Shown here piece by piece: positions 358 to 53,272 of a stretch of DNA of 64,000 bases. A program made the position numbers and the translations under genes. The notes under the pieces were generated by a model that saw only the letters and a program-made list of their open reading frames with translations, was not told the DNA's origin and did no database searches. Positions within the stretch are counted from its first letter, which is position 1, and each line of letters starts with the position of its first letter. The stretch is from a virus, in IMG/VR virus record IMGVR_UViG_3300045988_177924, one strand, 5' to 3'.

Positions 358-657
358 TTATTTGATGTATTCAGTAAGAACGACGGTGATTTCGCCGTCG
401 TGTTCGTCTTCATCTTCACAGAAGTAACTGGCAGTTACTCCTTTGATTTTATTGAGGGATTGCGCGACTAACTCAGAGTTATAGAACCAAATGTTGGCAG
501 GATTTTTGCTTTCAAGCGCCGCTTGAAATACTTCAAAATCCGTAATGTGCATTACGGGTTTCCCAAATGTTTTATATTGCATTTGGATTTTGTTATAGAG
601 GATATCAGCGATTGTGTCGTTGATAAGCACGGGGTTGTTGTTTTGATTATTTAGCAT
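358..657 (-). CDS. hypothetical protein, 99 aa
   Basis: ORF track. Phage-like K/E/N-rich composition, and co-oriented with the tightly packed downstream small ORFs. Confidence 0.6.
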   Translation of the reverse strand: MLNNQNNNPVLINDTIADILYNKIQMQYKTFGKPVMHITDFEVFQAALESKNPANIWFYNSELVAQSLNKIKGVTASYFCEDEDEHDGEITVVLTEYIK

Positions 658-679
658 AAGTTTGCCTTTTCCCTTATCC

Positions 680-1420
680 CTGGGAGCTAGGAGTTATTTT
701 TGTGCTTTCAGTTCATCTTTCGATGATGCAGAGCCACGACGAGCACGTAAGCACTTGGCTCCATTACTTCTATCCCTTAGACAGTCCTCTCATCCTTGCT
801 CTTTCTGGTGAGCCCCCTGTCATTTCCGCACCAGGTTTTGCACCCTGGCACGTTTCGGGATATCGGCAATCAGGCTTGCCGCGATTTAGGTTTTGTGCCC
901 TCTTTGTAAGTGGGACACACGCAGTTGTCTCTGCGCCTGGGGTTGGTTTAACTCCCAGATATACCAATATCAAGTCGTTGCTTGACTCGGAGTGTGCTTA
1001 ACGTAGACTCCTCTACAGGTTAGTTTGTTATTATGTGCAGTCCAACACACCTGAATGTCGTGTTGGGCTTCCAACTTGGTGTGAAAACACACCAACGCTA
1101 ACAAGTACGGCTTTCCCTTTAGCTCCATACTTGTTACGGGAACTGATGAATTTTTCGTTGGCTAGACTACTTACCTCGTTTAAGGTCCCTTCATCTGGGT
1201 TGCTACACTTATTGACGCCAGTGGCAGGCGTATGTTGTTCCCCCGAAAGGAAACATGGGAGTTCCTTGTGGATGGTAAGATTTCATCCCTCTCAAGGGCC
1301 AATCGAGAAGGCCACAAGGAACCATTTATTCCATTCCTGAGAATGGAGTGGGGTGATTAACCCCAACGTGTCAAGTTGTACCGCGAGCGTACTGACTTGA
1401 CACGGAAATTATTTTTTTCG
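680..1420. ncRNA. candidate large (~740 nt) structured non-coding RNA; class and strand unresolved
   Basis: No credible ORF. GC is about 50-55% (66/120 counted for 781-900) against about 35-40% in the flanks.
Dense perfect helices: 1076-1095 ttggtgtg/cacaccaa; 1100-1135 aacaagta/tacttgtt; 1261-1322 gttccttgtgg/ccacaaggaac; 1349-1365 tggggt/acccca; 1367-1404 cgtgtcaagt/acttgacacg; 731-761 gagcca/tggctc; 1042-1067 ccaacac/gtgttgg.
Plus-strand GNRA loops (cc-GAAA-gg near 1243; c-GCGA-g near 1385) and a T7 run after the 1367-1404 hairpin slightly favour the + strand. Confidence 0.6.
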
Positions 1421-1505
1421 ATTGTTGACGGCAGAGCGTCATATTTCCAATCAAAGCTCCTTTTCATCACAGTCTTCACCGTATAAAAAGGCAAGCTAAA
1501 AGTGA

Positions 1506-1534
1506 AATTTACACTTTTTGGAAAGTATTTTCAA
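1506..1534 (-). promoter_or_regulatory. putative sigma-70-type promoter (TTGAAA-17-TAAATT) reading leftward into the structured region and small ORFs
   Basis: rc of 1529-1534 = TTGAAA, 17-nt spacer, rc of 1506-1511 = TAAATT. It lies just downstream of the tandem minus-strand terminators. Confidence 0.4.
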
Positions 1535-1602
1535 TCGAAAATACAATTTCAGGACAAAAATATTCATAAACCCATTTTCCCGCCCCAACCCAATTTCCCC
1601 AT

Positions 1603-1634
1603 AAAAAAAAGGCGCCGACATCCGTAGTCAGCGC
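1603..1634 (-). terminator. intrinsic terminator (second of a tandem pair)
   Basis: On the minus strand, stem gcgctgac/gtcggcgc (one G-U pair) is followed by T8 (A-run 1603-1610 on +). Confidence 0.65.
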
Positions 1635-1654
1635 TCATCTCACCTCACACACAT

Positions 1655-1684
1655 AAAAAAAAGAGGAGCCAGGCACTCCTCTTC
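1655..1684 (-). terminator. intrinsic terminator after the 1689..1994 gene
   Basis: On the minus strand, stem agaggag/ctcctct (1662-1668 / 1676-1682) is followed by T7-8 (A-run 1655-1661 on +). Confidence 0.75.
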
Positions 1685-1688
1685 TTAA

Positions 1689-1994
1689 TCAAAACCAGAA
1701 AAAGTCATTCAAGACATCGAACATCGACGGCATCGAACTCTTCCCATTATAACTTATATGGAAAGAGCCGTAGTCCTTGACGAACTCTTTCAGCAACTTT
1801 TGTGCTTCGGCCTCAGCCTCTCGCGCCTTTTTAAAGGCGTCGACGACAGCCTTCGACCTCGTCTCGCGTTCGTTTTTAAGAGCCAGCTGTTTCTCTTCTT
1901 CGGCTTTCTTTTTTGCGACAATAGCCTCTTCGGCTTTTTCGCACTCTTCTTTTGTTTCATAGACCTTGTCGGTCATCTCACTGTAATACTTCAT
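1689..1994 (-). CDS. hypothetical coiled-coil protein, 101 aa
   Basis: ORF track. Charged K/E-rich helical sequence, with a terminator immediately downstream. Confidence 0.65.
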   Translation of the reverse strand: MKYYSEMTDKVYETKEECEKAEEAIVAKKKAEEEKQLALKNERETRSKAVVDAFKKAREAEAEAQKLLKEFVKDYGSFHISYNGKSSMPSMFDVLNDFFWF

Positions 1995-2573: not shown

Positions 2574-3836
2574 TTAATCTTGACTGTTAATGATATTTTG
2601 ACTTATATATAAGCAACTTCTTCTCGCTGAGATTCTGTTACAGTTTGATAATTTTGGTGTCTTATAGCCTCTCGGCATATAACTAAAATCTATCTGATTA
2701 TTAAATATGTCCATAAGTATAGCAAATCCAGAACTCATCTTTCCTTTGATGAAATACTCTTTTCCAAAGTATTTGACCTTATCAAATTTTCTAAATCCTT
2801 GAATCTTACCTACAGGGATTTTTTGTTCTCCACGAACGCCCCTAGTTAATTGATAATTTCCTTTGGATACTCTTCGCTTTTGATAGATAGTGTCATTGAG
2901 CGTGAACTCTTTACCACCGGAAGAGATGACACAAGCATCTATGAAATGGTCTTTTGGTAGATGGAGACTTTCACGATTCGTCTTAGTAACAAATCCAAAA
3001 GTCTCAATAGCGTCAGGATAGACCTTAAGCAACCGACTTCTGATGATACTCATGTGAGTTGCATACTTTAAATTCATCTTTTTAGGTTTTTTGTTTAGTG
3101 CAATTTTCCCACTATGGACTCCGGTGTGGCAATCTTCACATAAGGTTATGAGATTGCTCTCATCATCTGTTCCACTTTGACTTTTAAAGACGATGTGATG
3201 AACCTCTAATCTGGTATGTTTCTTACCGCAAATCTGGCAGGTATAACCATCACGATTAAGTATGGCTTCTCGTCTACTGGCCCATTCATAGTTAAAACCC
3301 TTTTGATACCCCCAGTGTTTGACCTTCTCCAAAATCAAACTTGGATTTTTCATCAGATGTGTATCAAACTGACTGACTTCAAGTACAATCTTTGAAATTG
3401 GGAGTATCTTTTTGCAGAACTCGATTTCATCAATGTGTGCTTGTACCTTGTGCTTGACGGAAGGTGGAAGCCTGTTTAATTTGGTAGAGTTATTACGGTT
3501 GAGGAATCTTGACTCACGATAACGAGTCTTTCTGTTGCGTCTATTCCTACGAGCCTGTCTCCTACTATCCATCTTCGACTTGATATCGTCTCGAAGTTTT
3601 ACATTTGACTGATACAAAACTTTGTTATTGCCAACACAAGCAGTACCAATATATTTTGAGCCTGTATCTTGTCCTAAGACAACGTCTTGTGTATACTCAG
3701 TGGAGTCATAAGTAAGTTGAATTGTAAATGGACATCTCTTTTTGACTTTAGCTTTGCCATCTTTGAGAAGCAATCTTGCGACCACATTCTCGCATGGCAT
3801 TAGCGGTTTCCCACTTTTTGAAATTACATAAACCAT
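2574..3836 (-). CDS. iscB: IscB, OMEGA-family RNA-guided RuvC/HNH nuclease (420 aa)
   Basis: All IscB modules are recognisable in order:
- PLMP domain: MVYVISKSGKPLMP...PFTIQLTY
- RuvC-I: VLGQDTGSKYIG
- Arg-rich bridge helix: RRQARRNRRNRKTRYRESRF
- RuvC-II: IVLEVSQFD
- HNH: CQICGKK..EVHHIV..NLITLCEDCH
- RuvC-III: KDHFIDACVIS
Catalytic residues appear intact. Confidence 0.9.
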   Translation of the reverse strand: MVYVISKSGKPLMPCENVVARLLLKDGKAKVKKRCPFTIQLTYDSTEYTQDVVLGQDTGSKYIGTACVGNNKVLYQSNVKLRDDIKSKMDSRRQARRNRRNRKTRYRESRFLNRNNSTKLNRLPPSVKHKVQAHIDEIEFCKKILPISKIVLEVSQFDTHLMKNPSLILEKVKHWGYQKGFNYEWASRREAILNRDGYTCQICGKKHTRLEVHHIVFKSQSGTDDESNLITLCEDCHTGVHSGKIALNKKPKKMNLKYATHMSIIRSRLLKVYPDAIETFGFVTKTNRESLHLPKDHFIDACVISSGGKEFTLNDTIYQKRRVSKGNYQLTRGVRGEQKIPVGKIQGFRKFDKVKYFGKEYFIKGKMSSGFAILMDIFNNQIDFSYMPRGYKTPKLSNCNRISARRSCLYISQNIINSQD

Positions 3837-4162
3837 AAATAAGTCTCCTTAAAATTCTCACTCTTAATGAGTGGTAACGCCTATCTTAACTCTGTTACCA
3901 AGTTAAGAATTGGTCTTCCTTTCGTCAATGTTAATTAGGCTTTTGCGACATACACACAGGGCTTTTCTTACTCCAACCCAACTTAATGTATATCGACAGA
4001 GCGACGGTCTAAGGCGACAACCGAAGGTGTCATGACCTAACTAACGTAGCTCTCATTTCTGAGGCTGAGACTTGTGAACTATTTAATGGAAGCCTACGAG
4101 TTTTTAGCTCATAGGTGGCTCACTAGGATTATTACATCACTTTACTCCTTTATATCTTATAT
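3837..4162 (-). ncRNA. putative omega RNA (HEARO-type guide RNA) of IscB
   Basis: About 325-nt ORF-free leader directly 5' of iscB, the canonical omega-RNA position.
Predicted helices on the minus strand: cctatgag/ctcgtagg, ggtaac/gttacc, cactc/gagtg, and a UUCG-loop hairpin.
A consensus promoter places the TSS near 4162. The exact 5' guide/scaffold boundary is not determinable by eye. Confidence 0.7.
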
Positions 4163-4286: not shown

Positions 4287-4327
4287 TGTCATTGGTAGTT
4301 GACAAATGGTATTTTTCTGTGTATAAT
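4287..4327 (+). promoter_or_regulatory. consensus promoter TGTCAT-N6-TTGACA-N17-TATAAT firing rightward into the AT tract
   Basis: TTGACA at 4299-4304, 17-nt spacer, TATAAT at 4322-4327. The transcript would begin with GGGGTGGGTGGTCGGG. Confidence 0.75.
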
Positions 4328-4357
4328 AGGGGTGGGTGGTCGGGAGAATGAGATCAC

Positions 4358-4558
4358 TATTTTTTATTATATTATATTTTAATATATATTTAACATATTA
4401 TATGTTATAATGATAGAATATATGTTATATGATCATATATTATATATATTTAATTATATTTTAATATATTATTACTTTTTTAATATATAATAATATTAAT
4501 TATAATTAATATTATTTATATTAATATTTATAATTATTATATATTTATATATAAATAA
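4358..4558. other. about 200-bp tract of 96% A+T (candidate DNA-unwinding element)
   Basis: I counted only 8 G/C in 201 nt, and 4441-4558 holds a single C. No ORF and no repeat-spacer periodicity. Confidence 0.8.
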
Positions 4559-4594
4559 GCAAGATCTTCTTATCTATACCCGCCCACCACCCAA

Positions 4595-4635
4595 ATTATA
4601 ACAACTTTGAAAAGAAAAGTCAACCTACAATGACA
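4595..4635 (-). promoter_or_regulatory. consensus promoter TGTCAT-N6-TTGACT-N17-TATAAT firing leftward into the AT tract
   Basis: rc of 4618-4623 = TTGACT, 17-nt spacer, rc of 4595-4600 = TATAAT. The transcript would begin with GGGTGGTGGGCGGG. It mirrors the 4287-4327 promoter. Confidence 0.75.
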
Positions 4636-4669
4636 CAAAAATAAAAAAAATTTTAAAACTTTACAAAAA

Positions 4670-4710
4670 TGTCATCATATGTTGATATTAAATATGATAT
4701 GTGTTATAAT
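4670..4710 (+). promoter_or_regulatory. promoter for the rightward gene block: TGTCAT-N6-TTGATA-N17-TATAAT
   Basis: TTGATA at 4682-4687, 17-nt spacer, TATAAT at 4705-4710. The first gene starts at 4785. Confidence 0.7.
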
Positions 4711-5906: not shown

Positions 5907-7541
5907 GTGCCTAATTTACAAAACCTATATCAAGTTTTTAAACTTAAATCTAGTTTTATTGTAGAGAACAACTTAAATATAGTTAATTATTCAAAATCTA
6001 AGGCAGCTCGCGATGGAGCGCTGGTATCAATTGGTGATAATCTGGTTTTTCAACAAATCAGAAAATATTATAATGATACCAGAAGTCATCGAGAGATTTT
6101 TAACGATGTCCAACAATTTCGTCGCGCTATAAGAGCCGCGAAGAGAGAGGGACGAACTAAGGAAGCTGGTATTCTTAATCGGTTTTTGACAGATGCGTTG
6201 TTTGTTAAAGATATTATTAACGTTGAAGTCGTGACCAAGAAAGAATATAAAGAATTGGCCAAGAATGGTTTTGACGTTAACGGTATTCATTATGTGAGAT
6301 TTTGTTGTGGTTCGGGACAAATGAGGCGCAACACTATTACCTTTATTAACGAAGCTCTTTATGACACCTTGTACAAAAACCTGATGTGCGGGTTGGACAC
6401 CAAGATTTCAGAAATGAATTTGGCGAAATATCATGCGTATTTTGCGTTGGCGTTTTCAAGTGTTATGTGGGTGCGAACTCCGAGGGTATGCGTAGTTAAG
6501 GATTTCTTTAATGTGGTGAAGGATCAATCGGTTGATTGGATTTGCCCCAATCCCGAGACTGGGAAAAAACAGATTAAAGAAAGAATAATGGATATCGAGT
6601 TAAACTGCGCTGATGGACAGGGGTTGATAGATCCTAAGTTTGCGGCGCTGTGGGCAGAAGATATGAATTTATCATATACGCCGTCGTCGTTCGTTGTCCG
6701 TAGCGTTTTTGTGAAGGGGTGCTTGGTTCCATTTGATTTTCGAGAATTTGGAGCTGTACACGGTATTGACTCAATTCGTGACCGGTGGGGAATCTCGCAT
6801 AGGTTAGAGGATATTGATGTTATATTGAGTGAATCTCAATTCAAGATGTATAAATATTATGTATCTTGGTATGAATATCAAAAGTATGTAGATGCGGCTG
6901 GTATTCAGTGGGGAGTTGCGAGATATAATAAAAAGTACGATGACGAATATGTGCTGGCTAATTATCAATATCTGCAAGTGTTGGATATCAATAAGGATGA
7001 TATTCTGGAATTGATTCAACCGACGATTGATTGGATTAAAAAGATTTGTTCAGGTGACCAATTGTATACAATGCTGTATATGTTGGGTTGCAAGGGCGAA
7101 CAGGTCAGTTTTAAAGAGCTGTACAATGGAGCGCAAAGCACGGCGTTGAGGGCTATTATTAAAAACCCGATAATGTTGGAAGACGCTCATGTACAGAAGA
7201 AAATATATCGCAATATTGCTGAGACGATAAACAAGGCGAAGATTGGTAAGATATGGGTGAGAGGAAATTATAGTTTTATGATTTCCGATCCCGTGGCACA
7301 GTGCCAATCGGCGCTTGGGTTGGAACCGGTGGGGTTAATTGGGCCTGACCAAGTGTATTCAAATTTCTGGAGGCAGCGAAGTGTGGGTTGTGTTGACCTG
7401 TGCCGCAGCCCGATGATTGACTCGCACGAACACAACCCTTGTAAAGTAGTATCGTCCGAAGATATGGATTATTGGTATCAATATATTAAGAGTGGAATCA
7501 TTTATAGTATATATGATACTTCAACATTACGACACTCCGAT
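5907..7541 (+). CDS. YonO / RdRP-family single-subunit two-barrel RNA polymerase, exon 1
   Basis: Family-type motifs CADGQGLID, VVRSVFVKGCLV (R..KG) and CRSPMIDSH. The ORF runs into an in-frame stop 4 codons after the proposed 5' splice site. Exon 1 ends ...RHSD with a U at 7541. Confidence 0.7.
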
Positions 7542-8587
7542 AGTGACTTAACATAATGGGTCCGTCGGATGGTAACATTCGATTGCTACTCAGTGAACCT
7601 GGCAATCCAGGGTGTGGGATAAAATCCTGCTAACAGTAAAAATCGTAAGTTTTGTTGGTCGGCCTGGAGAGAAATGCCGACAGAAGAAAAAGAATTCTAT
7701 GTCTATGAATGGATAAACAAAGACACGGGAGAGATTTTCTACGTAGGGAAAGGTAGTGGTTATCGTTGGAAACGTAAAACCGCCAGCTCTCGAAACAGAT
7801 ATTTCAATCGTTATGTCCAAAAATATCCAAATTGTGAACCTCGAAAAGTTTATGAAAATTTAACTGAAGAAGAGGCTTACAACAAAGAGCGAGAATTAAT
7901 AGCCGAATATAAAGCACAAGGCGTTCAGCTGGTTAACTTCGACGAAGGAGGACGACGAGGTGGACGCTCACCTGGAAAGCTAAATGGTATGTATGGGAAA
8001 ACACATACACCAGAAGCTCGAAAGAAAATAAGCGAAGCCAATTCCGATGGCCACAATGCGGGAATCAACAATACTCAATATGGAATTAGTCCAAGAGAGC
8101 GTATGAGTCCTGCGATATACGAGCAGTGGCGTACGGCACACAAGAAAGTAGTTGGTGCAGCAAATCCAAATTGCCATCATACAATTTTGTTTAATCTTGA
8201 ACATGAGATTGTGAAAGAGTTTGAATATACGATTGAATGTGCGCATTTTTTGGAAGAGCAAGAGCATTTAACTAATGGAATTGAGAATATTCGCTCGCAA
8301 ATCAAATATTACAGCAATACAGGACACGTTATGTTCAATAAGTATTATGTAAAAGTGATTCGGCCAACAAAACAAGACAATACTGTGCCAAGCCTCGTGA
8401 AAGAGGAAGGTTAAACGACTACCGAAAGCATATCAAGCGAGAAAAACGTTTGAAAAGAAGCAAGTAGGGTAGAGAACGGTGCAAATCCGGTTCTCGAAGT
8501 GCTGAGGGAACTATGAACGGTAAAAGAACATAGCTCTAAGAGATAGTCTACTCCCCTAATAAATATCGGGAAACCGAGGGTATAAAG
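7542..8587 (+). mobile_element. group I intron (1046 nt) carrying a GIY-YIG homing endonuclease ORF
   Basis: The 5' exon ends in U (7541) and the intron ends in G (8587). P1 pairs exon tccgaU (7536-7541) with the internal guide Gtcgga (7564-7569), with the U-G wobble at the splice site. Splicing restores one frame and creates the motif DVDGD. ORF-free structured arms lie at 7542-7673 and 8415-8587. Confidence 0.8.
7674..8414 (+). CDS. GIY-YIG homing endonuclease (I-TevI-like) with NUMOD3-type motif
   Basis: GIY-YIG region FYVYEW..GEIFYVGKGSGYRWKRK, the NUMOD3-like NGMYGKTHTPEARKKISEAN, and its own RBS GGAGAG. It lies wholly inside the intron. Confidence 0.85.
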   Translation: MPTEEKEFYVYEWINKDTGEIFYVGKGSGYRWKRKTASSRNRYFNRYVQKYPNCEPRKVYENLTEEEAYNKERELIAEYKAQGVQLVNFDEGGRRGGRSPGKLNGMYGKTHTPEARKKISEANSDGHNAGINNTQYGISPRERMSPAIYEQWRTAHKKVVGAANPNCHHTILFNLEHEIVKEFEYTIECAHFLEEQEHLTNGIENIRSQIKYYSNTGHVMFNKYYVKVIRPTKQDNTVPSLVKEEG

Positions 8588-9820
8588 GTTGACGGAGATG
8601 TAGTAATGTCCACGGATAATAAAATCTTTATCAAGGGTGCGCAAAAATGGCACAATGTCATCACATATGAGAAAGGTGCGGTGCCGGTTCAGAAGATTTG
8701 TTTAAAGAATTCAATCGCGACCGATATTCGCGGCTTGGGAACTGGGGTTGGAGGTTTTTCTAACTGCGCAACAATAATGCACGCAATGAAGGGAATTTTC
8801 CAAAAAGACACCCAAAAAGAACAAAGAGACGAACTCACTTTGCGTATTAAATTACTTCGAGAAATTGTTGGTCAAGAAATTGATAGAATTAAAGGAACAG
8901 CCGCGCCGGAGCTGCCAAAAGAGTGGAAAAAATTCATCCGAATTAATGATGATGACACTGATGCGGTTAAGGCTGATAAATATAAAAGAAATTCGATGGT
9001 TATTTCTAAAAAACCCTATTTCTTTAGATATTTATATCCAGAGCTAAACCAACAGTTCAAGCAATACGAAAACAGTTACAATATGGCGTCCAAAAACATG
9101 TTTGGTATTAAATTTAAAAAGCTTTTAACCAAACCTAATAAGTCAGAAGACGAGATGAATTTGGTACGCCGTTATCAAAAGTATTCGCCGCTAATCACCG
9201 CACCGTGCATAATGAATATATTGTGTAAGGAATTTGAAAATGTCGATTTTGATATTAATTTCAATAAAAACGCGGTAAGTATGTTGCCTACCTTTGAGGA
9301 TTGTTTTGAATTTGATCAAGAACGGTTTGCTATTGTTAAAGATTTGTATCGCAAATATACAGCGCGTAAACAAGTAAAAACCTTGGAGAGTATTGTTGAT
9401 AATATTGATTTACCGAATCGTGACGAATATGATGAGATTAGATTCGGGGCAATGACATTTATCAGAACGGAAATTCAAGAGGCGATTGAGTCTGCGTCGT
9501 TCAGTGGCAAAGAATTGCTTTACTACTGCCATTGTTTATCAAAAGAATACAAACAGTTTAATTGGGATTTTGCTTGGGACATTTTAGACGAAAGCGTGTT
9601 GGATTTAATCCCTCGTGGAATTGTTCAGATTCCCGTAAAAAATGAGACTGGATTTGAATACCTTGGTAATCGATACACTTTACAAGTAATTCACGAAGAT
9701 CGCGTCAGCGAGTTGTGTGATGATGACGATTGGAATCAAACGGCGTGGGAAGAAATTTTGGGGCAAGATTTAGATTTTGACTTCGATGCTGATAACTTAT
9801 TTGGAGGCGATGACGTATGA
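8588..9820 (+). CDS. YonO / RdRP-family RNA polymerase, exon 2
   Basis: The reading frame is open from 8540 and reads ...VDGDVVMSTDNK. Joined to exon 1 it gives HS-DVDGD-VV, the DxDGD metal-binding motif, 45 aa after the RSP motif. The spliced product is about 955 aa. Confidence 0.7.
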   Translation, partial: VDGDVVMSTDNKIFIKGAQKWHNVITYEKGAVPVQKICLKNSIATDIRGLGTGVGGFSNCATIMHAMKGIFQKDTQKEQRDELTLRIKLLREIVGQEIDRIKGTAAPELPKEWKKFIRINDDDTDAVKADKYKRNSMVISKKPYFFRYLYPELNQQFKQYENSYNMASKNMFGIKFKKLLTKPNKSEDEMNLVRRYQKYSPLITAPCIMNILCKEFENVDFDINFNKNAVSMLPTFEDCFEFDQERFAIVKDLYRKYTARKQVKTLESIVDNIDLPNRDEYDEIRFGAMTFIRTEIQEAIESASFSGKELLYYCHCLSKEYKQFNWDFAWDILDESVLDLIPRGIVQIPVKNETGFEYLGNRYTLQVIHEDRVSELCDDDDWNQTAWEEILGQDLDFDFDADNLFGGDDV

Positions 9821-41777: not shown

Positions 41778-44700
41778 ATGGAAGGAATGGACTATACTCC
41801 CATTTTAACAAGCGTTGGTTCGGCTGATAGTGCAATTATTGCGATGCTCGAAGATTCGCAACTTACCGCAGAGAATTTAGGGACGACAGCCGCATATTTA
41901 ACAGACACTTTAAAAACAACAACTGATAAACAGTTAGAGGCTGCAGTTCAACAACAAAAAATCACACAAGCCCAACAAAAGGCGCTTGCTTGGATTCGAG
42001 ATAATTTTGAACAATTTCCTGGTGAAGTAAGGAAAACTCTTAAAGACACTTTTTCGAGTTTGTCAACACAGATGGCCAAATTGCCTCCCGCTGTAGTCCA
42101 CGAAGCTACTCGAACGTTAGTGTTGCCGTTGGTTGATAAAATTATCGGTAGCTTAAACGATGAGGAAATTGGCCGCTTGGCTATGGCGAAGATAAATCAG
42201 GGTTTAGGTGTGGACAACTTAAACAAGTACTCTGCTGGTTATAGAGCAATCTTTGAACAAATTAACAAAGAGTACAAATCGGTTTTAAAAGATTCTACTG
42301 ACCTTAGTGAACAATTTAAAAAAGCCAAGAAAGCACTTGCTAACACCACTTTAGCGGACTTTTCATCCACGAGTGGCTCGCCAGCGGTGAATAGAGAAAT
42401 TGCCACATTGCTAGATATGGCAAAAAAGGCCAAACAACAAAAAAATCCCGATTACAATCCAACGATAACCAACAAGGATGTTACTGGTAGTGCTCGTAGA
42501 GTAACAAAGGTCGCAGAAAAAATACAACAAAACGCTTTCTCGACGCAGAAAGAAGCGGAAAGTATTATTCTTCAATATTTTGATCCCAAAAAATTGACTC
42601 AAGAGGGGAAAAATCGTGCCAAGCAAGCCGCGGAATATGCTGCTAATATGCAAAAAGCGGGATATGGAGTAAGCTTCGCCCAAGATAACGGTTCTCAAGA
42701 GATTAAAGTTATTGTTTATGACAAAAATAGTGTCAATGCTTTCGATAGAAAGGGAAGGGTAAATCGTCAAAATGCCGCCATTGCTTCTTTTGCGGTTGGG
42801 GGCTTAGATAAGCGAAATGACGATTATGTAATTGATCAAGCCAAGAGAGTGAAAGTGTCGGATGCCGAGGCTCAAAAATTTGTTGAGATGTCTCAACATG
42901 CTCCCAAAACAATCGCAAGTGCGCGTAAACGTATTGGGGACATTAAAAACGAAACTGTTCACAAATCAACCTCAAAGTTTGATCGACAAGACAACCTGTA
43001 TGGTGTTGGCGCAGATAAGGCGTTAGTTGAAAGCAGAACTCGTTTTGAGAATGAGGCGAAACGTTTAGCAAAATTTGAGAAAGATCAAGGTTCTACCATG
43101 ACCGAATCGGAACTCGTTAAGTTGTTTTCTCAAATGTTTGTTAGCTTTGCTGGATTTGGGGAGCGGGATATTGGCGTACAAAAGAGTTTACGAGACCAAC
43201 AAATGAAAAACGGTCTCTCAGACGCAGTTATACGAGAATTTAATAAAAACTTTTCTTGGTTACCTTTGGTTGGCTCAATGGGTGAGGAAGATTCTGGCCA
43301 CTATCGACTGTGGGGCGCCAAAGAAATGAAGGACAAAATGGCCCTCGTAACTCGTAAAATACAAGGTCGTGATATCCAGCCTTACGCTAAACAAGGTAAA
43401 CCCGAACGTGTACAAAACATAGAAGTTGACGTCAACCGTTTGTTTGATCAAGTTGACGATTTGCTTAATAGCGCAGACGACAAAAAACGCGAGGCGGCGC
43501 AACTCCTTGATAAAAATCGTGACTTAATCGAGGGTTTGGTTGATGGTATGGCCCTGGTGTCGAAAGATCAAATTCAAAATTTGGACACAATTCGAGAGGG
43601 CGTATCGGTTAAGATTTCTAAAGCCGATTTGTTCAAATACGGGTTAAAAGGCAAGAAGAAGAAAAGTGCCGAAAACAGACGAAAAGCCTATCAAAAACTT
43701 TTGGCGGCCGAAGGCCGAGAGGCCACGGATGATAATGTTGATTTTTATATTGATCCTGAGACAGGAGATGTAACCTTAACCGGGAAAGAGGTGGTTAGGG
43801 CGCATACGGGTACAAAAGCCAATAGTGCCTACGGTAACTTACGTGTCGTTTATCGTGAAGTAGTTCCAGAAGTTATTAAGGCTATTTCCACAATAACAGG
43901 AGTTGAATTAATGCCCGAAAAAGACTCGCGCGCGACTGTGGTGTCAGCAAGAGAAGAAACCAGTTCAAGAAATATCGGACCGCTTGTAACTAGGGCTATA
44001 GACAACGCGATAAATGAACTAGATAAGAGTCAGATTGAAGCCAGTGTGAACAAACTTGGTACCACAAACCTGTCGACCAACATTGGACAAGCCTTAGTTG
44101 ACGTTTTGTTGAAAAAATTGAGCTTTAGCGATGCTTTGGACAAGTACGTGGGCTCAAACGTATCGGCTCGTACCAAATTTACGGGTGAAACCTTATATCT
44201 GTTAGATGAGTTGACGGGCGGAAAAAATGGATATGAAATTGTTGATGGGAAATTACAAACTAAGGCCCTTGCGTCTAGCTTTACTGATGTTGTTGGCGCA
44301 CGTTATGGTGAATATGAACCAAGAGGTGCGGCCAGCTTGCCAACAAACTGGGAAGTAGAAGATCTTGAACGTTCGGCTCGTGCAGCCGGTGTGGAAATAA
44401 CCCCCGAAAATAGTGATTTTTTACGCACTGTTCAACTTGTTGCTTTTGGAGCAACCGCAAACGATATCGAAGAAAAAAAGAAACTTATACGAGACTATAA
44501 TGAACATATTGAGCGTCAAGCTCAACTAATAGGTTCGCGAGCGGGGTTAAACCCTGATTATATCAATCGAAATGCGGGTGTTAACACAATCGTTGTTGGC
44601 TCAAAAGACATATATGGCAATCAAGCACACTTTATTGACATAAACGCACTTCGTCGCACTGAGAAATTAGACAACGGACAAAGTGATCCCGAACAAAGAG

Positions 44701-47700
44701 GTGAAACCATTTGGGGTAAACTTGATGAGCAGTTGCAATCTATAGACCAAACTCAAGCAAAAATTTTGGTTGATTTGGGCGCGGATATGGGAGAAGCGCG
44801 ATATTTCGATTTGGGCAAATACACTGATGAAATTGGAGATTATAACGAAAGTTTAGAAAGTTTACTTGACGCGGTTCGAACGGGGAAAACAGCGTCCGAA
44901 AAGAAAGACTTGCTAACCGCTGTCTTAAAGGCAGAGGCTTACAACTTTGAAAACACTGGCGGGGCTGTTAATGAACAATTCTTAGCAAAAATGGCTCGCC
45001 ACCAAGAAGAGGCAAGGAAAGCGGCTCAAGAGAGATATGATAAGAAATATAAGAAACGTTTAGCGTACTCTACGTTTTATGGCGAAAATACCAATATTGT
45101 AGCGACAGATACTACGAATGAAGTTGACGCCTTGCAAGAACGCATGAAGGATAGCGGTACTTATGTCGATAAAGAACATATTAGAGCAAGTGTCGCGCTT
45201 GGGTTGAATGCCTATAAGGGTGATGATAATGATGCTTTTGTAAAAAACTTAGCGCAATATTTGCAACTTTTTGCAGAACAGGGGCAAGACAAAGCTATCG
45301 AATCAGCTCTCGCCAATCAAAACTTTAAGAATTTTGCCGAAATGGTCGATTTTGCGACCAATATTTTTACCACGGGAACCTCAGAACATGAGAATTTTTA
45401 TGGCGGCACGAATCCTATTTTAAGTCGCGGTGTTGAAGCTGTATTGGGGAGGCAGCCTTATAGCCAAGCCATTAACTTACAATACGGAGGGTTGGTCTTT
45501 GGTAAAGAGGGCCTAGGAACAAACGTAATCGAAAGTAACCGTGGTCTCAACAAATTGATCATGGGGGATTTTGACGGTGATAAATTATACACCGCTTTAG
45601 TTCAACTTCGACAGGCTGCCCAGCTAATAGGCGCTACTTCCGAACAGTTTGGCTGGTTAGACGAAACCTTGGAAAGAGTCAAACGTTATAATGAATTTTT
45701 ATATAGAGTTATAGGAAAGAATATTCCGGCTATTACCTCATCCGACGCCGACTCATCGGTAATTCTTGATTTGGCGAAAAATCAAGTGTTAAACGATAAG
45801 CAAATGGCAATAGTGCGTTCCTATCAAAACCAGGCGAAAGACAAAACGGGTAACTGGTCCAACGTTGCAAAAGGTGCTCGAAATGTTTTAGAGTTACAAA
45901 AGTTGGGTACGGGTGCTGTTGTAGGCGGAGATTTGAATTCAACTATCGACTTTATTAAGGGGTCGTTTGTTTTTGAAGCACTAGAACAAGCTGAGCAAAA
46001 TGCGATTTCTTCTAAGAAACTTTGGGACGTTGCAATCCAAGATATGCAAACCACGCTTGGTTCCGATTTGGATAAAGTTGATGAACAAACGTTCGCTGAG
46101 CAACTTGACAAGTCTTTTAATATCGCGATTAACAAAGTTATTGATGAAGTTTACAAAAATAAAGCAAATGTGAACGATGTGATTCAAGCCGGTGCGGAAC
46201 AAGGAATCTATAAAGACAACAAATTAGAGGCCTGGCGTTCCCAACGAATATTGGGCACTTTGGCGATGAGCAAAAACGTTTCAGCGTACAAAGCTTTGGA
46301 AGAGTCTGGTATTTCCCCAGGTGACTTGGAAGCAATTGCTCAAATTGTTAAACCGGGCCGGAATTGGGAAAGTTTCAGAGGTCAACAAGGTGACTTTCAA
46401 AGTCAGTTACTGGACCAACTGAATCAAGGCGCTTTTAACCAATTTGGCTTTAGTGTAGACACATTAAAGGCATTTGGCGGCAATTTAGATGATGATTTTT
46501 TAGCGCAGGCTAAACAAGCACACGGGCGATTCCGTGAAGAAACAGGTCCTACAGGGCTTGGTACGGCAGCTGGAGAACTTATCAAAGCTATTAACAAATT
46601 AACGGTAGCAGAGACAAAAGTTGATAAGACAGGATTCGACCCTAAAATTGTTAGTATATTAGAAGAAATTCGAGACTTGCTTGCTAAACAAGGCCGAGGC
46701 GGTCTTAACGGACGTTATGGGCAGACCTATATGACACCAACGGGTATTGTCTCGAGTTTAAATCCTTCTTCGATCGATGAATCGGCTTGGGGTTATTTAC
46801 AGGGAAGAATGTTAGGGTTTAAGGGTTCAAATATCGATTGGACAAAACTAAATGTCAAAGAAAAGGCAAAACAGTTTGGCTACGCGGATATAGAACAATT
46901 TAAACAAGATAGAGAAGGTGTAGTTAGTACGTTTATAGGAACACTAGCTCACGCATTTTCTGAAGGTGAGATTAAACAGGATCCTGAAATTTTTAAACAA
47001 GCAACAAAGGATTTTACACAAGCTTTATCAATGCTGTTTGATAAAAAGGATGTCGACAAATATTTACTTGTTGCAAATGAATATGCACAAAGGGGTTATA
47101 ACGCATACGACCGATTAGCTGGACCAGACGCGTATCGTGCGGCGGAAGAACGGGTGCGATTAAATGAGAATTCTGATGTGGTAAAAGGTAAGACTGACGC
47201 CATTTACACAAGTAAGCGTATGGCTGAAAGTGGTCAAGAATATCAAGTGTTTAATGTTGTTGACTTTAAAAACAAGGCTAAAGTTGATGCTAATAGTATA
47301 GAACAGGTCTTGATTTATGTCGAGATGTACCGCCGTATTAAACAAGATTTGGATAAATTGGTGCGAGAAATTGGAGAAGACGCTGCTTTGGAAAAAATGA
47401 GCAAGCAGACACTCTTGTCGGCTGATACATTACGCCAATTACACGAATCGTTGGATGTTAGTGCTCAAATTGTCCAAAATTATCAAGGGAAAACCAAAGT
47501 GTATGATGTCGCAAATGTTCCCAGAGACATTGCGCAAGCTCTGGTGGAGGGGCGTTCTTTAACGGCAGAACAACAAAAGATTATAAATAATGCTGCCACA
47601 GCGTCGTCGCCACTGACACAAACCATGTCGCCTGATTTCCAAAAAAAATATTATAAGCTCACCGGTGAAATTTTTGGGGTAGATGGGTATAGTAAAAATA

Positions 47701-50700
47701 CGGTTGATTATGAGAAAAAAATAGCTGAACAAAAAGCTCTTGAGGAACAATTAAATAAAGTTCAAACAGAGCAAGGCGAAGAATCAACCGTGTTTAAGAA
47801 ACTCACACAATATTACAACAATCTTCTCGAAGAAATTAAGGCTCTGGAAGAAATTCGCAAACGACAGGTTCAAGAATTAAAACTTACCAAAGGTATGAAG
47901 GGGTCGGTGACACGCACGACTCGCAATCAAGTTCAACAACTTCTCGAAACGGGAGATTTACACTTTGGGTATGAAAAAATTCTAAAAGATGATGAGAAAC
48001 AGCGCTTACTTGCCCAAAAGCAACGAGAAGCCGTATTGAACCAGTACAAACGCTATAACGATCAGATTGCTAAGACGGAAAAGGACATGTTGGTTTTGGA
48101 CAAACAATCTAGAACCACACCGAGTAAACTCGAAAGAGGAATTCAAGCCGATAGAGGACAAATTGATATACTAAAGGCTGAACTCAAAGAGTTAGTTGAA
48201 AAACGTAATCTGCTTGTTGAAAACAATAAATTGACACAGGCAGAAACCGCCGAAGCCGATGCTCAACTTCAAACCAAGAGAGAATTAAACAGGCTTAAGG
48301 TTGCTGGAATGGCCAAGGGCGCCGGGAATTGGTTAGATGTTATTGGAAGTGGTGTTAAAAATACCATTACGAGAATGTTCGATTACAATGGTGTATATCG
48401 TATTCTGAATCGTATAACACAAGGTTTGCGTCAGCTTGTGCAACAGGTAAATGAGCTTGATGTTGCAATGTTCAACTTGCAAGTTGTTAGTGGTGACAGT
48501 CGTCAAGAAGTTTCAGCATTAATTAATGATTATGGCAAACTTGCTCAACAATTACACACTACTACAACTCAAATTGCTGCTTCGGCAAACGAGTGGCTTA
48601 GACAAGGTTATGAAGCAGGACAGGCTAACGAGCTGATCAAAGCTTCAACATATTTGAGCAAATTAGGCATGATTGAGGCTGGCCAAGCTACAACTTATTT
48701 GACGTCTATGATCAAGGGCTTCAAATTAGAGGCTGCCGACGCAGTTAATATTGTTGACAAGTTAACCGCTGTTGATATGGAAGCGGCTGTTAGCGCTGGT
48801 GGTATTGCTGCAGCAATGCAAAACGTTGCAACAACTGCTCAGTTAGCGGGGTTATCCATTGATAAAACAATTGGTTACTTGTCAACCATGATTGAAGTTA
48901 CCCAACGAGACCCTTCCTCTATGGGTATGGCTTTGCGCACGGTTTTAGCGCGTTATGGTAATGTTAAAGCAGGGACTTTCACAAATATGACGGGTATAGA
49001 AAGTTCCGATGCTGATTTAGAAAATGTTAACGATATTGAAAAAGTTTTAGGCAAAGTAGGAATACGCATTCGCGAAAATGCACAAGAGTTTAGAGATTTC
49101 GGAGACGTAATTGATGAACTGAGTGAAAAGTGGCAAAAATACGATTCTGTTACTAAAAACGCGATTGCTACTGCTATGGCTGGTGTTCGTCAACGTGAAT
49201 CTTTCTTGGTTTTAATGGAAAACAAAGATAGGGCTGACGAGTTGGAAGATGTGTCATCTTTATCAAAGGGCACCGCCGACACAAAATATGCTGCTTACCA
49301 ACAGACGTTAATGGCAGCAAAGGCCGATTTACAGACGTCACTACAAAGTTTGGCAAAATCAATACAAGACAGCGGATTACTTATTGCCTTTACCAAGTTG
49401 GCTAATATTTTGATTAAAACGGTTGTTCCTGGGTTTAACGCGCTTGCTTCTATGCTATGGGCGCGAAATTCGTTTAAACTAACAGAACAAATCAAATATA
49501 GTTTAAACCAACGTAAAACAACTTCCGCAGCCTCTCTCGGATTTTTTGCACAAAAAACACAACAAGAAGCATTAAGAAGACAAGAGTGGCAACAGGAGTT
49601 TTATAAAAAGAAAGAGGGCACTAATCAAACGTATGTTGACAGGTTATTGGGGAAAACATCACCCAAGACTGCGCTTTCGTCGTTTACTAATGTGTTGAAT
49701 GATGCGTCTACAGCAGTACGTGGTTTTACGGGTGCCATAAATGGCTCACCGGTTCAGTCCACAACCTCTTCTCAAGCACCATCGAAGACGCCTGTGGTAG
49801 ATCCAAGGCGTCTGGTGTATACCGAGGCCGGCGAGTGGCCTAGTGTAGATGAATACGCCAAAGGTTCTAGGTTTAGACGCCTTAATAGGGCAAAAATTCG
49901 TAAAGATTTACAAAGCGGTCGCATAACCACTGTTGACGCGAGCAATATTAAACAAAAATATAAACAAATAGCAAAAGAAGATCGACAACAAGCCAAAGCA
50001 CTTTTAGGCCAGCAAATTACAGGGAACGTAGCAGGTGCGGTTGGCGCCGGTGTCACCTCTGCATTAACCACGGGGTTTAACCAAGAGGGTTCCGCAGGGG
50101 CGAAGGCGACTGCTGGAGTTACAGCTGGTGCTTTGACAGGTGTTGGTGCATTATTTGGTCCAATGGGAGCGGTTATAGGTTCCACTTTGGGTTCAATATT
50201 GGGACCGGTTTTTGCTAAATTGGTTGACAAAGAAGAAAACGAACGTAAACAACGTGCAGAAGCAGCTCAGAAACAATTGGACGCTTTAAATTCATTAAAC
50301 AATACATTTGATGAAGTGCATGATTATACCGAGAAAGAGTATTTAACTTCAGAGGCCATTTTAGCTATTAAAGAGCGAGTTGACTCTATTGACGAGCAGA
50401 TGGCTACAAGTGGTTTAAGTTTCGACGATTATCTTAAACAAGCTGCTACCCAACTTGGATTGGGTGAGGATTTTCAAACTATAGAAGATATTCGTGAGCT
50501 ATTAACCGCTGCTGATGAGAAAACTCGTCAAAAGGCACAAGAGGTGTTTGACTTAGCCCAAAGTATGGCCAAAGTACAAACAACGCAAGAGTCCAAGGCA
50601 GTGTCGGATATGTCATATGATGAGAAGAGAGTTTATTGGCGGGCATTAGACAAAGAGTATATTAAACAAGCGTTTATTACATCTGGTCTGGAGCAAATGT

Positions 50701-53105: not shown

Positions 53106-53123
53106 TGTATTTTAACTTATTTC

Positions 53124-53157
53124 ACGCAGATTCCCCATTTATTAGGGGATTCTGCGT
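53124..53157 (+). terminator. long hairpin after the giant gene (terminator-like; weak T-tract)
   Basis: acgcagattcccc / ggggattctgcgt, 13 bp with one mismatch. Confidence 0.4.
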
Positions 53158-53272
53158 TGAAATAATAAAATCTTCATTTTATTTGAAGGTTGATAACGAG
53201 TTTTTAGCGACGTTCTCGAAAAAACGTCTCTTCCAAAATACTTTAGGGGGCTTAGTCCCGAAGGAGTGAAAC

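What the first reader, a model, noticed from the sequence alone, without database searches (positions are those of the whole stretch)
680..1420. ~740-nt GC-rich, ORF-free, helix-dense island: candidate large ornate ncRNA in a phage early region
GC jumps to about 50-55% in a genome of about 35-40% GC, a classic sign of structured RNA in AT-rich genomes.

The only ORFs in the region translate to non-phage-like, low-quality peptides without RBS.

I can hand-fold at least ten perfect 5-11-bp helices, including an 11-bp long-range pair at 1261-1271/1312-1322 and a 10-bp stem at 1367-1404. Several hairpins are capped by GNRA loops when read on the + strand.

The region is insulated upstream by two tandem minus-strand terminators (1603-1684).

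The size and phage context resemble the large phage/prophage-associated RNAs (ROOL, GOLLD classes). I cannot recognise a specific family by eye, so it may be an undescribed class.
Basis: partly seen in the sequence, partly recalled or inferred. Interest (0 to 1): 0.8.

Follow-up and report, generated by a model that had tools for sequence, protein, structure and literature searches.

The report
New large structured phage RNA
The flagged island is a real, roughly 800-nucleotide, non-coding RNA with many helices and two pseudoknots; it lies on the minus strand of a human-gut phage, matches no RNA family in Rfam, and most resembles the enigmatic giant phage RNAs ROOL and GOLLD.

Summary
Window 702-1505 has no conserved ORF and folds far better than shuffled sequence (z about -6).

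I found 12 further homologous copies in gut-phage contigs, forming two subtypes about 55% identical. They share invariant core blocks and differ by whole inserted or deleted hairpins. Indels are not multiples of three and substitutions show no codon periodicity.

Covariation supports about 25 helices and two pseudoknots:
- Core domain: 94.5% of cells paired, 13 pairs with double changes, against 1-3 in slid controls.
- 3' domain: 98.9% paired, 9 of 21 pairs with double changes.

G-U versus A-C counts, the flanking genes and a conserved promoter place the RNA on the minus strand, not the plus strand.

No Rfam family matches either subtype. ROOL, GOLLD, HEARO and introns were included, and the same tool scored a genuine ROOL at 275 bits in a related phage.

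The RNA lies between a conserved early promoter and the ribosome-binding site of the first early ORF. Close relatives carry a small ORF plus a pistol ribozyme, or a P-loop kinase gene, at this position.

My best reading is a new class of autonomous large phage RNA. Its function is unknown.

The parts
1603..1686 (-). Two tandem intrinsic terminators that end the upstream 101-aa gene (1689-1994). The stems are at 1658-1686 and 1612-1634, each followed by a T run.
   Evidence: terminator scan. Conserved in relatives.
1506..1580 (-). Conserved promoter region. It has three parts: an invariant block ATGGGTTTATGAATATTTTTGTCC (1552-1575); an inverted repeat whose sequence varies while its complementarity is kept (about 1520-1546); and a -35 TTGAAA (1529-1534) with a -10 TAAATT (1506-1511). 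The transcription start is inferred a few bases downstream, at about 1498-1505.
   Evidence: TTGAAA-17-TAAATT. (alignment of 16 loci: AAAAAGTGTAAATT is invariant and the hairpin arms covary). (in relatives without the RNA, a ribosome-binding site and ATG follow TAAATT after about 20 nt). The start site is inferred, not shown.
702..1505 (-). The structured non-coding RNA as a whole, about 800 nt.
1330..1505 (-). 5' hairpin series: P0 (1464-1505, a 5'-terminal hairpin), P0b (1418-1454), P1 (1367-1404), P2 (1350-1364) and P3 (1330-1347). Sequence differs between subtypes A and B, but the order and shape of the hairpins are kept.
   Evidence: (independent folds of 13 members), (coordinates).
1142..1327 (-). 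Conserved core:
- P4 (1312-1323 with 1261-1271) closes a three-way junction with P5 (1288-1311) and P6 (1270-1288).
- It is followed by P7 (1236-1255), P8 (1215-1231), P9 (1187-1199) and P10 (1173-1186).
- Then comes a 31-nt near-invariant strand, AAGUAGUCUAGCCAACGAAAAAUUCAUCAGU (1142-1172).
- Pseudoknot PK1 pairs the P5 loop UUGGC (1298-1302) with GCCAA (1158-1162).
   Evidence: 94.5% of cells paired, 13 pairs with double changes against 1-3 in slid controls. PK1 reads C-G in 7 sequences and U-A in 4, plus one U-G. One search gives the same result on a structure-blind MAFFT alignment.
864..1138 (-). Variable middle region: P11 (1096-1138), P12 (1076-1095), P13 (1039-1069), P14 (937-958), P15 (919-936), P16 (895-918) and P18 (864-881). 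Lineage-specific hairpins are inserted here in other members.
   Evidence: P15 reads GCGCAG/CUGCGU or GUGUGG/CCACGC; P18 reads UCGGCA/UGCCGA or ACGCCA/UGGCGU. Compensatory changes in P11 and P12 are seen in L003 and L057.
702..863 (-). 3' region:
- Long-range P19 (857-863 with 770-776) encloses P20 (828-851) and P21 (780-821; its internal loop is CAGAAAGAGCAAGG).
- Then come P22 (730-762) and P23 (713-726, GAAA loop).
- Pseudoknot PK2 pairs GUGCUU (749-754) with AAGCAC (702-707).
   Evidence: (folds): 98.9% paired and 9 of 21 pairs with double changes, against 0-1 in slid controls. PK2 pair 21-65 occurs as U-A, G-C and C-G.
358..693 (-). Downstream elements: the motif CTCCTAGCTCCCAGGGATAAGGGAAAAGG (665-693), then the first downstream ORF (657..358, 99 aa). 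No terminator separates the RNA from this ORF.
   Evidence: The downstream ORF family differs among members.

Best explanation
This is a non-coding RNA gene of a previously undescribed class, about 800 nt long, on the minus strand (about 1505 to 702) of a roughly 130-140-kb human-gut phage of SD-using, probably Bacillota, hosts.

**Transcription (inferred).** The upstream gene ends at two terminators. A conserved sigma-A-like promoter (TTGAAA-17-TAAATT) then starts a new transcript whose first ~800 nt are this RNA.

**Fold (shown by covariation).**
- The RNA starts with a 5'-terminal hairpin and a row of hairpins.
- The core is a three-way junction locked by a loop-to-strand pseudoknot, next to a 31-nt near-invariant strand.
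- A variable middle region follows.
- The 3' domain is closed by a second pseudoknot. In several members this pseudoknot ends about 10-15 nt before the ribosome-binding site of the first small early ORF.

**Mode of action (inferred).** The RNA is made early, as the untranslated head of the early operon transcript. It acts as an autonomous module rather than as a regulator of one gene. It is most likely a stable, possibly self-assembling scaffold or decoy RNA in the manner proposed for ROOL and GOLLD. Its structured 5' and 3' ends would protect it from exonucleases after, or without, separation from the mRNA.

Its molecular target is unknown.
For: **Real and structured.**
- MFE z is about -6 on both strands.
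- There are 13 members in two subtypes about 55% identical, with invariant blocks and whole-hairpin indels.
- Covariation in the core: 94.5% paired, 13 double-change pairs against 1-3 in slid controls, 0 of 500 shuffles as good.
- Seven helices on a structure-blind alignment: 94.8% paired, 11 double-change pairs against 0-2 in slid controls.
- The 3' domain and PK2: 98.9% paired, 9 of 21 pairs with double changes.

**Non-coding.** Substitutions show no 3-periodicity, most indels are not multiples of 3, and no ORF is conserved.

**Minus strand.**
- In the curated pairs there are 43 G-U against 11 A-C.
- 119 against 52 pairs are shared by at least 5 independent folds.
- The RNA runs in the same direction as all flanking genes.
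- The plus-strand T run after the 1367-1404 stem is not conserved.

**Promoter and co-transcription.**
- The -10 box is conserved in all relatives.
- In RNA-less L002 a ribosome-binding site and ATG follow it after about 20 nt.
- In L028, L022, L010, L026 and L057 the site AAAGGAGG follows the RNA directly.

**Autonomous module.**
- The first downstream ORF belongs to at least four different families among members.
- Relatives with 96%-identical flanks replace the whole module.

**Kinship of context with ROOL.** A related phage (L013) has a bona fide ROOL (275 bits) and a tRNA array next to the same 101-aa gene.
Against: - There is no expression data.
- There is no terminator at the 3' end, and the RNA sits in what is formally a 5' UTR. 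A cis role therefore cannot be excluded.
- Only 13 sequences in a few lineages were found, so the covariation counts partly reflect a single A/B split. R-scape-type statistics could not be run.
- No tRNAs lie nearby in this window, unlike typical ROOL and GOLLD loci.
- Nothing was tested that bears on oligomerisation or stability.
- The -35 box is weak in subtype B. The covarying inverted repeat upstream of the -10 box leaves the exact transcription start uncertain.
Confidence: 0.62

Rival explanations
1. It is a giant cis-acting 5' leader. The structured RNA stays attached to the early mRNA and controls its translation, stability or processing. For example, the 3' pseudoknot next to the ribosome-binding site could gate initiation, or the RNA could sense a host signal.
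For: - The RNA lies exactly between the promoter and the ribosome-binding site of the first ORF.
- There is no terminator and no room for a second promoter.
- Relatives carry self-cleaving pistol and twister-sister ribozymes in the same operon, so leader and mRNA processing is a theme here.
Against: - The first downstream ORF differs among members (fam9, fam7, fam3 and others).
- In type A an extra 29-nt motif separates the RNA from the ORF.
- Two short subtype-B members (L004, L021) lack the 3' domain altogether.
- From general knowledge, about 800 nt with about 25 helices and two pseudoknots far exceeds known bacterial leaders.
- Close relatives express the same ORFs without it.
Confidence: 0.22
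2. It is a new ribozyme or self-processing mobile RNA element inserted in the leader, such as an intron-like or self-cleaving element that excises itself.
For: - Presence and absence between near-identical flanks looks like insertion.
- The neighbourhood is rich in self-cleaving ribozymes.
- The near-invariant 31-nt strand and the pseudoknots would suit an active site.
Against: - No group I or II intron, nor any known ribozyme model, matches even at E up to 10.
- There is no flanking coding exon to restore.
- No target-site duplication or terminal repeats were seen at the junctions.
- There is no second copy in the window.
Confidence: 0.08
3. The RNA is on the plus strand. It would end at the 1367-1404 hairpin, which would act as its terminator.
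For: - The plus-strand fold is about as stable (z -5.99).
- In the window the hairpin is followed by a T run.
Against: - The T run is deleted or changed in L025, L022, L003 and subtype B.
- G-U pairs outnumber A-C pairs 43 to 11 when read on the minus strand.
- Conserved-fold votes favour the minus strand, 119 to 52.
- No plus-strand promoter is conserved.
- All neighbouring genes and the conserved promoter point the other way.
Confidence: 0.03
4. It is not an RNA at all. It is a decayed protein gene, or a DNA-level element such as an origin or packaging site with DNA hairpins.
For: - The region has two ORFs of about 100 aa on the plus strand.
- It lies about 3 kb from a very AT-rich stretch at 4300-4700.
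Against: - Substitutions show no codon periodicity, indels break the frame, and the ORFs are not conserved.
- Compensatory changes, frequent G-U pairs and two covarying pseudoknots point to RNA-level selection.
Confidence: 0.03

Closest known systems
ROOL RNA (Rfam RF03087)
   Same: - Both are large (about 0.6-0.8 kb), phage-encoded, protein-free-looking RNAs with many helices and multiple pseudoknots, and their function is unknown.
- A related phage (L013) carries a genuine ROOL next to the homologue of the same 101-aa gene.
- ROOL is described as encoded in phages and prophages, often near tRNA islands, and as forming an octameric cage (PMC12286853).
   Different: - There is no sequence or structure match to the ROOL model, even at E up to 10, in either subtype.
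- No tRNAs lie nearby in the window.
- Here the RNA sits in the 5' leader of an early operon.
- Oligomerisation was not tested.
GOLLD RNA (Rfam RF01998)
   Same: - Both are about 800 nt, phage-encoded, ornate, with conserved and variable halves.
- GOLLD expression is reported to rise during phage lysis (PMC12286853).
   Different: - There is no match to the GOLLD model.
- Here the most conserved part is the central core plus a 3' pseudoknot domain.
- There is no tRNA association.
HEARO / IscB omega-RNA (Rfam RF02033)
   Same: Both are structured RNAs in the same phage region. A true HEARO lies at 3910-4123 (-), next to an IscB-like ORF at 2574-3836.
   Different: - The candidate does not match HEARO.
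- It lies about 1.1 kb beyond the IscB element.
- It occurs in relatives that lack IscB, such as L028 and L033.
Promoter-early stem-loop (PeSL) cassette boundaries of T4-type phages
   Same: A conserved early promoter, with a stem-loop whose arms covary, marks the left edge of a slot whose cargo is swapped between close relatives. This resemblance is recalled from general knowledge and was not tested.
   Different: This concerns the boundary of the slot, not the RNA itself. Only one copy of the element was seen per locus.

Membership tests
ROOL (RF03087) | Match to the Rfam covariance model at or above its gathering score (99.1 bits) | tested here: not met
   There was no ROOL hit at gathering, or at E up to 10 with relaxed filters, for subtype A or subtype B. 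Positive control: ROOL in L013 scored 275.2 bits.
ROOL (RF03087) | Phage or prophage location, often beside tRNA arrays | tested here: inconclusive
   The phage context is met: terminase and portal, IMG/VR contigs. There are no tRNAs in the 64-kb window.
ROOL / GOLLD | RNA-only homo-oligomeric cage (PMC12286853) | not testable with these tools
   This needs native gels, SEC-MALS or cryo-EM of the transcript.
GOLLD (RF01998) | Match to the Rfam covariance model | tested here: not met
   No GOLLD hit.
HEARO / omega-RNA (RF02033) | Match to the model, and position directly upstream of an IscB/HNH ORF | tested here: not met
   HEARO matches only 3910-4123. The candidate has no hit and is present without IscB in L028 and L033.
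Group I / group II introns and known self-cleaving ribozymes | Match to the Rfam models, and flanking exons that join into a gene | tested here: not met
   There are no such hits at E up to 10. The flanks are a promoter and a ribosome-binding site, not exons.
Gene-specific cis-regulatory leader (riboswitch or T-box type) | Constant association with one downstream gene family | tested here: not met
   The first downstream ORF belongs to different families among members.
Structured non-coding RNA (generic) | Compensatory base changes above controls, and a non-coding substitution pattern | tested here: met

The most novel reading that the evidence does not exclude
This is a third class of giant 'ornate' phage RNA, unrelated in sequence and fold to ROOL and GOLLD. 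It would assemble into an RNA-only particle or act as a decoy or ribozyme early in infection. It occupies an accessory slot that close relatives fill with a pistol-ribozyme cassette or an AAA_33/KTI12-type P-loop kinase. That exchangeability would point to a counter-defence or RNA-metabolism role.
Probability: 0.3. Interest if true: 0.9.

Novelty: new variant of a known kind. Interest (0 to 1): 0.77.

Why it matters
Very few classes of large, protein-independent structured RNA are known in bacteria and phages (OLE, GOLLD, ROOL, raiA, HEARO). Their functions remain largely unsolved even after cryo-EM showed that GOLLD and ROOL form cages.

A further, unrelated class would help in two ways:
- It comes with natural variants that carry or lack the RNA between nearly identical flanks.
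- It has a defined place at the head of an early operon.

Together these give a comparative handle on what such RNAs do for phages. The RNA is also a new target for RNA structure determination. The phage itself appears common in human gut metagenomes: the neighbouring 101-aa protein is indexed in 959 blocks of the collection.

Tried and rejected
- **Rfam.** I ran the whole window at gathering threshold, and both subtypes at E up to 10. Only chance-level hits (snoRNA, IRES, miRNA) appeared.
- **BLASTN against GenBank phages (INPHARED).** No match.
- **More homologues by exact-pattern scans of IMG/VR.** Three different conserved motifs returned only the same three contigs. The single metagenome scan gave 6 contigs and the genome scan 1.
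- **Look-ups of nine variants of the neighbouring 101-aa protein.** These added only L028, L033, L031 and L057.
- **A profile HMM and the covariance model R1.** Neither found cryptic copies in the RNA-less relatives.
- **RNAalifold on the full 1283-column alignment.** The consensus was poor because MAFFT puts several helices out of register between subtypes. I switched to per-segment folds, a covariance-model realignment and a hand-gapped 3' alignment.
- **mafft-qinsi.** It could not run because MXSCARNA is missing.
- **DGR or retron-type template.** Rejected: no second copy in the window.
- **A + strand terminator at 1367-1404.** Rejected: the T run is not conserved.
- **AlphaFold model of the neighbouring 101-aa protein.** It shows a beta-hairpin plus one long helix (mean pLDDT 82.6). 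This gave no functional lead and I did not follow it up.
- **Group I intron in the split RNA-polymerase gene.** Not found by Rfam.

Full report
**1. The observation**

- Window 680-1420 lies between minus-strand genes: 657..358 downstream and 1994..1689 upstream. It contains only short ORFs, or ORFs on the opposite strand.
- Both strands fold far better than dinucleotide shuffles: -259.9 kcal/mol with z -5.99 on plus, and -265.2 with z -5.62 on minus.
- GC of the flagged span is 47.9% against 41.0% for the window. The sd for 740-nt windows is 3.6%, and only 2.3% of such windows are as GC-rich.
- The two minus-strand terminators at 1612-1634 and 1658-1686 are confirmed.
They correspond to P4 and P1 of the model below.

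**2. Known families**

- Rfam 15 at gathering thresholds finds one RNA in the whole window: HEARO at 3910-4123 (-), next to an IscB-like HNH ORF at 2574-3836.
- A relaxed search (E up to 10) of 400-1800 gives only chance hits. So does a search of a subtype-B homologue.
- The same tool recognises ROOL at 275 bits, and pistol, twister-sister and tRNAs, in related loci. The negative result is therefore meaningful.
- The region has no BLASTN match in GenBank phages. The window has no tRNA.

**3. Homologues**

- I searched with the upstream 101-aa protein ('fam1') and with an invariant core motif. This recovered copies in IMG/VR, ENA, JGI and Logan gut-metagenome contigs, and in one 6.4-kb contig binned as a Treponema MAG.
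- There are 13 distinct members:
  - Type A: window (= L031), L028, L033, L025, L003, L023, L024, L022.
  - Mosaic: L057.
  - Type B: L010, L026, L004, L021.
- Lengths from the promoter to the last helix range from 730 to 1111 nt. Types A and B are about 55% identical.
- The alignments show the signature of a structured RNA. Invariant blocks, such as a 44-nt stretch identical in A and B, alternate with segments where whole hairpins are inserted, deleted or replaced.
- Substitutions show no 3-base periodicity. Most indels are not multiples of three. The longest ORF changes strand and frame from member to member.
- L025, L022 and L057 are mosaics of A-like and B-like segments. This suggests recombination within the RNA.

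**4. Strand**

All members lie in the direction of the flanking genes, which is the window's minus strand. Four observations place the RNA on that strand:

- Independent MFE folds of ten members, mapped onto the alignment, share 119 pairs in at least 5 sequences on the minus strand, against 52 on the plus strand.
- In the curated core structure there are 43 G-U cells against 11 A-C cells. Most of the A-C cells come from a one-column register slip in P4.
- The T run that would make 1367-1404 a plus-strand terminator is absent from L025, L022, L003 and type B.
- A G-U pair inside P7 is conserved. It would be a C-A mismatch on the plus strand.

**5. Structure and covariation**

*5' end.* Both subtypes have a terminal hairpin (P0), a bipartite hairpin (P0b) and three simple hairpins (P1-P3). 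These occur in the same order although the sequences are unrelated.

*Core (window 1327-1142).*
- P4 closes a three-way junction with P5 and P6.
- P7-P10 follow, then a 31-nt near-invariant strand.
- The P5 loop UUGGC pairs with GCCAA in that strand (PK1). Type B has UUGGU with ACCAA, and L057 has a U-G at the first pair.

I tested the core in two ways:
- A covariance model of the core (R1) realigned all 13 members. On that alignment 94.5% of cells are paired and 13 of 53 pairs change on both sides, against 1-3 in slid controls. The covariation score is 0.268 against 0.04-0.09, and 0 of 500 shuffles reach it.
- That alignment is fitted to the model. I therefore repeated the count for seven helices that are in register on the structure-blind MAFFT alignment A2. 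There 94.8% of cells are paired and 11 of 35 pairs have double changes, against 0-2 in slid controls. The score is 0.297 against 0.02-0.08.

*Middle region.* P11-P18 hold compensatory changes and lineage-specific insertions.

*3' domain.*
- P22, its inner hairpin, and P23 covary strongly.
- So does a second pseudoknot, PK2 (GUGCUU at 754-749 with AAGCAC at 707-702).
- 98.9% of cells are paired and 9 of 21 pairs have double changes, against 0-1 in slid controls.
- One PK2 pair occurs as U-A, G-C and C-G. That alignment was gapped by hand.

*Caveat.* Much of the signal comes from the single A/B split plus a few within-type events. I could not run R-scape.

**6. Context and boundaries**

*Upstream.*
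- After the two terminators comes an intergenic element shared by nearly all relatives, including those without the RNA.
- It has an invariant 24-mer, an inverted repeat whose arms covary, and the invariant AAAAAGTGTAAATT.
- The scan reads this as -35 TTGAAA, 17 nt, -10 TAAATT.
- Sequences diverge about 10 nt after the -10 box.
- In the RNA-less relative L002, a ribosome-binding site and ATG of a 52-aa ORF follow within about 20 nt, and then a pistol ribozyme.
- In L028, L022 and type B, the same kind of site (AAAGGAGG) and ORF follow directly after PK2.

*What this implies.*
- The RNA occupies the stretch between the transcription start and the first ribosome-binding site of a minus-strand, presumably early, operon.
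- It has no terminator of its own, so it must be co-transcribed with the ORFs.

*The slot is exchangeable.*
- The flanks of L002 are 96% identical to the window up to position 1506, and unrelated after it.
- Other relatives carry a 320-aa AAA_33/KTI12 P-loop kinase there, or only about 250 nt.
- Roughly 7 of about 54 loci fetched through fam1 carry the RNA.

*Neighbours.*
- The first ORF after the RNA belongs to at least four families among members.
- The upstream fam1 gene is constant, but it also occurs without the RNA.
- In the more distant L013, a genuine ROOL and a tRNA array sit just upstream of the fam1 homologue.

*The phage.*
- It has a terminase, a portal and a PF05183 RdRP-like (YonO-type) polymerase.
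- The terminase is only distantly similar to those of Bacillus and Clostridium phages.

**7. Interpretation**

*Shown:*
- a conserved, non-coding, minus-strand element with extensive covarying secondary structure and two pseudoknots;
- unrelated to any Rfam family;
- modular in its distribution.

*Inferred:*
- transcription from the conserved promoter;
- co-transcription with the early ORFs;
- an autonomous role for the RNA.

I favour an autonomous RNA over a gene-specific leader for three reasons:
- The downstream genes vary.
- The whole module comes and goes between near-identical flanks.
- Its size and tertiary complexity match ROOL and GOLLD rather than any known leader.

ROOL and GOLLD are phage-encoded, abundant, of unknown function, and form RNA-only cages (PMC12286853). 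A ROOL in the same neighbourhood of a related phage makes functional analogy a reasonable lead, but it is not a test.

The main rival is a giant cis-acting leader, because of the RNA's position in the 5' UTR. A new self-processing ribozyme or mobile RNA is a minor rival. The plus-strand, pseudogene and DNA-element readings are effectively excluded.

**8. Novelty and score**

- It is not a member of ROOL, GOLLD, HEARO or any intron or ribozyme family; the defining models were tested and not met.
- It belongs to the same broad kind, a large ornate phage RNA, but it is a new class with a distinctive placement.
- I rate it a new variant of a known kind, with interest about 0.77.

Noticed in passing
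window 2574-4123 (-): A HEARO/omega-RNA (3910-4123, 94.6 bits) lies directly upstream of a 420-aa IscB-like ORF with RRXRR and HNH domains (2574-3836). Among ten contigs carrying the identical neighbouring protein, only one (L031, equivalent to the window) has this element. It therefore looks like a recent mobile insertion.
   Followed up: partly
window 5907-9820 (+): The PF05183 RdRP-like (YonO-type) RNA polymerase is one 960-aa gene in relatives. Here it appears split into 549 aa (5907-7556) and 404 aa (8606-9820) by an insert that encodes a 246-aa protein with a NUMOD3 homing-endonuclease motif (7674-8414). Rfam finds no intron there. I did not check that the 404-aa ORF is the polymerase's C-terminal part.
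   Followed up: partly
window 1520-1580 (-), and the same element in L002-L012 and L021-L026: A conserved intergenic element sits upstream of the RNA. It has an invariant 24-mer, then an inverted repeat whose arms covary between phages, then the invariant AAAAAGTGTAAATT. It marks the left edge of the variable slot and is single-copy per locus. It recalls the promoter-early stem-loops of T4-type phages.
   Followed up: partly
window 665-693 (-); two or more copies in L001/L003, L012 and L023: The 29-nt motif CTCCTAGCTCCCAGGGAnAAGGGAAAAGG lies just upstream of small early ORFs and recurs within single phage genomes. It may be a shared translation-initiation or processing signal.
   Followed up: no
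L002 1787-1853; L006 4865-4925; L004, L006, L008, L011, L012, L022, L025 (twister-sister); L013 614-3778: The early region of this phage group is packed with known structured RNAs. Pistol ribozymes occupy the same slot as the candidate RNA. One or two twister-sister ribozymes lie further down the operon. In L013 there are about 10 tRNAs, a DUF3800-XI RNA and a ROOL.
   Followed up: partly
L006 4477-5370 (+): The slot cargo of this relative, which includes its pistol ribozyme, is very strongly structured (MFE z -11.9). It ends with a sequence resembling a tRNA T-arm (GAGGUUCGACUCCUU). It may hold further unannotated RNAs.
   Followed up: no
window 4300-4700: An extremely AT-rich stretch (GC 12-25%) separates the leftward and rightward gene blocks. 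It may be a divergent promoter region or an origin of replication.
   Followed up: no
window 41778-58192 (+): There are two giant ORFs, of 3775 aa and 1639 aa. They were not analysed.
   Followed up: no
L005, L007, L037-L043 (slot downstream of the 101-aa gene): In these relatives the slot holds a 320-aa protein with an N-terminal AAA_33/KTI12 P-loop kinase domain. Its exchange with the RNA might hint at a shared theme in RNA metabolism or counter-defence.
   Followed up: no
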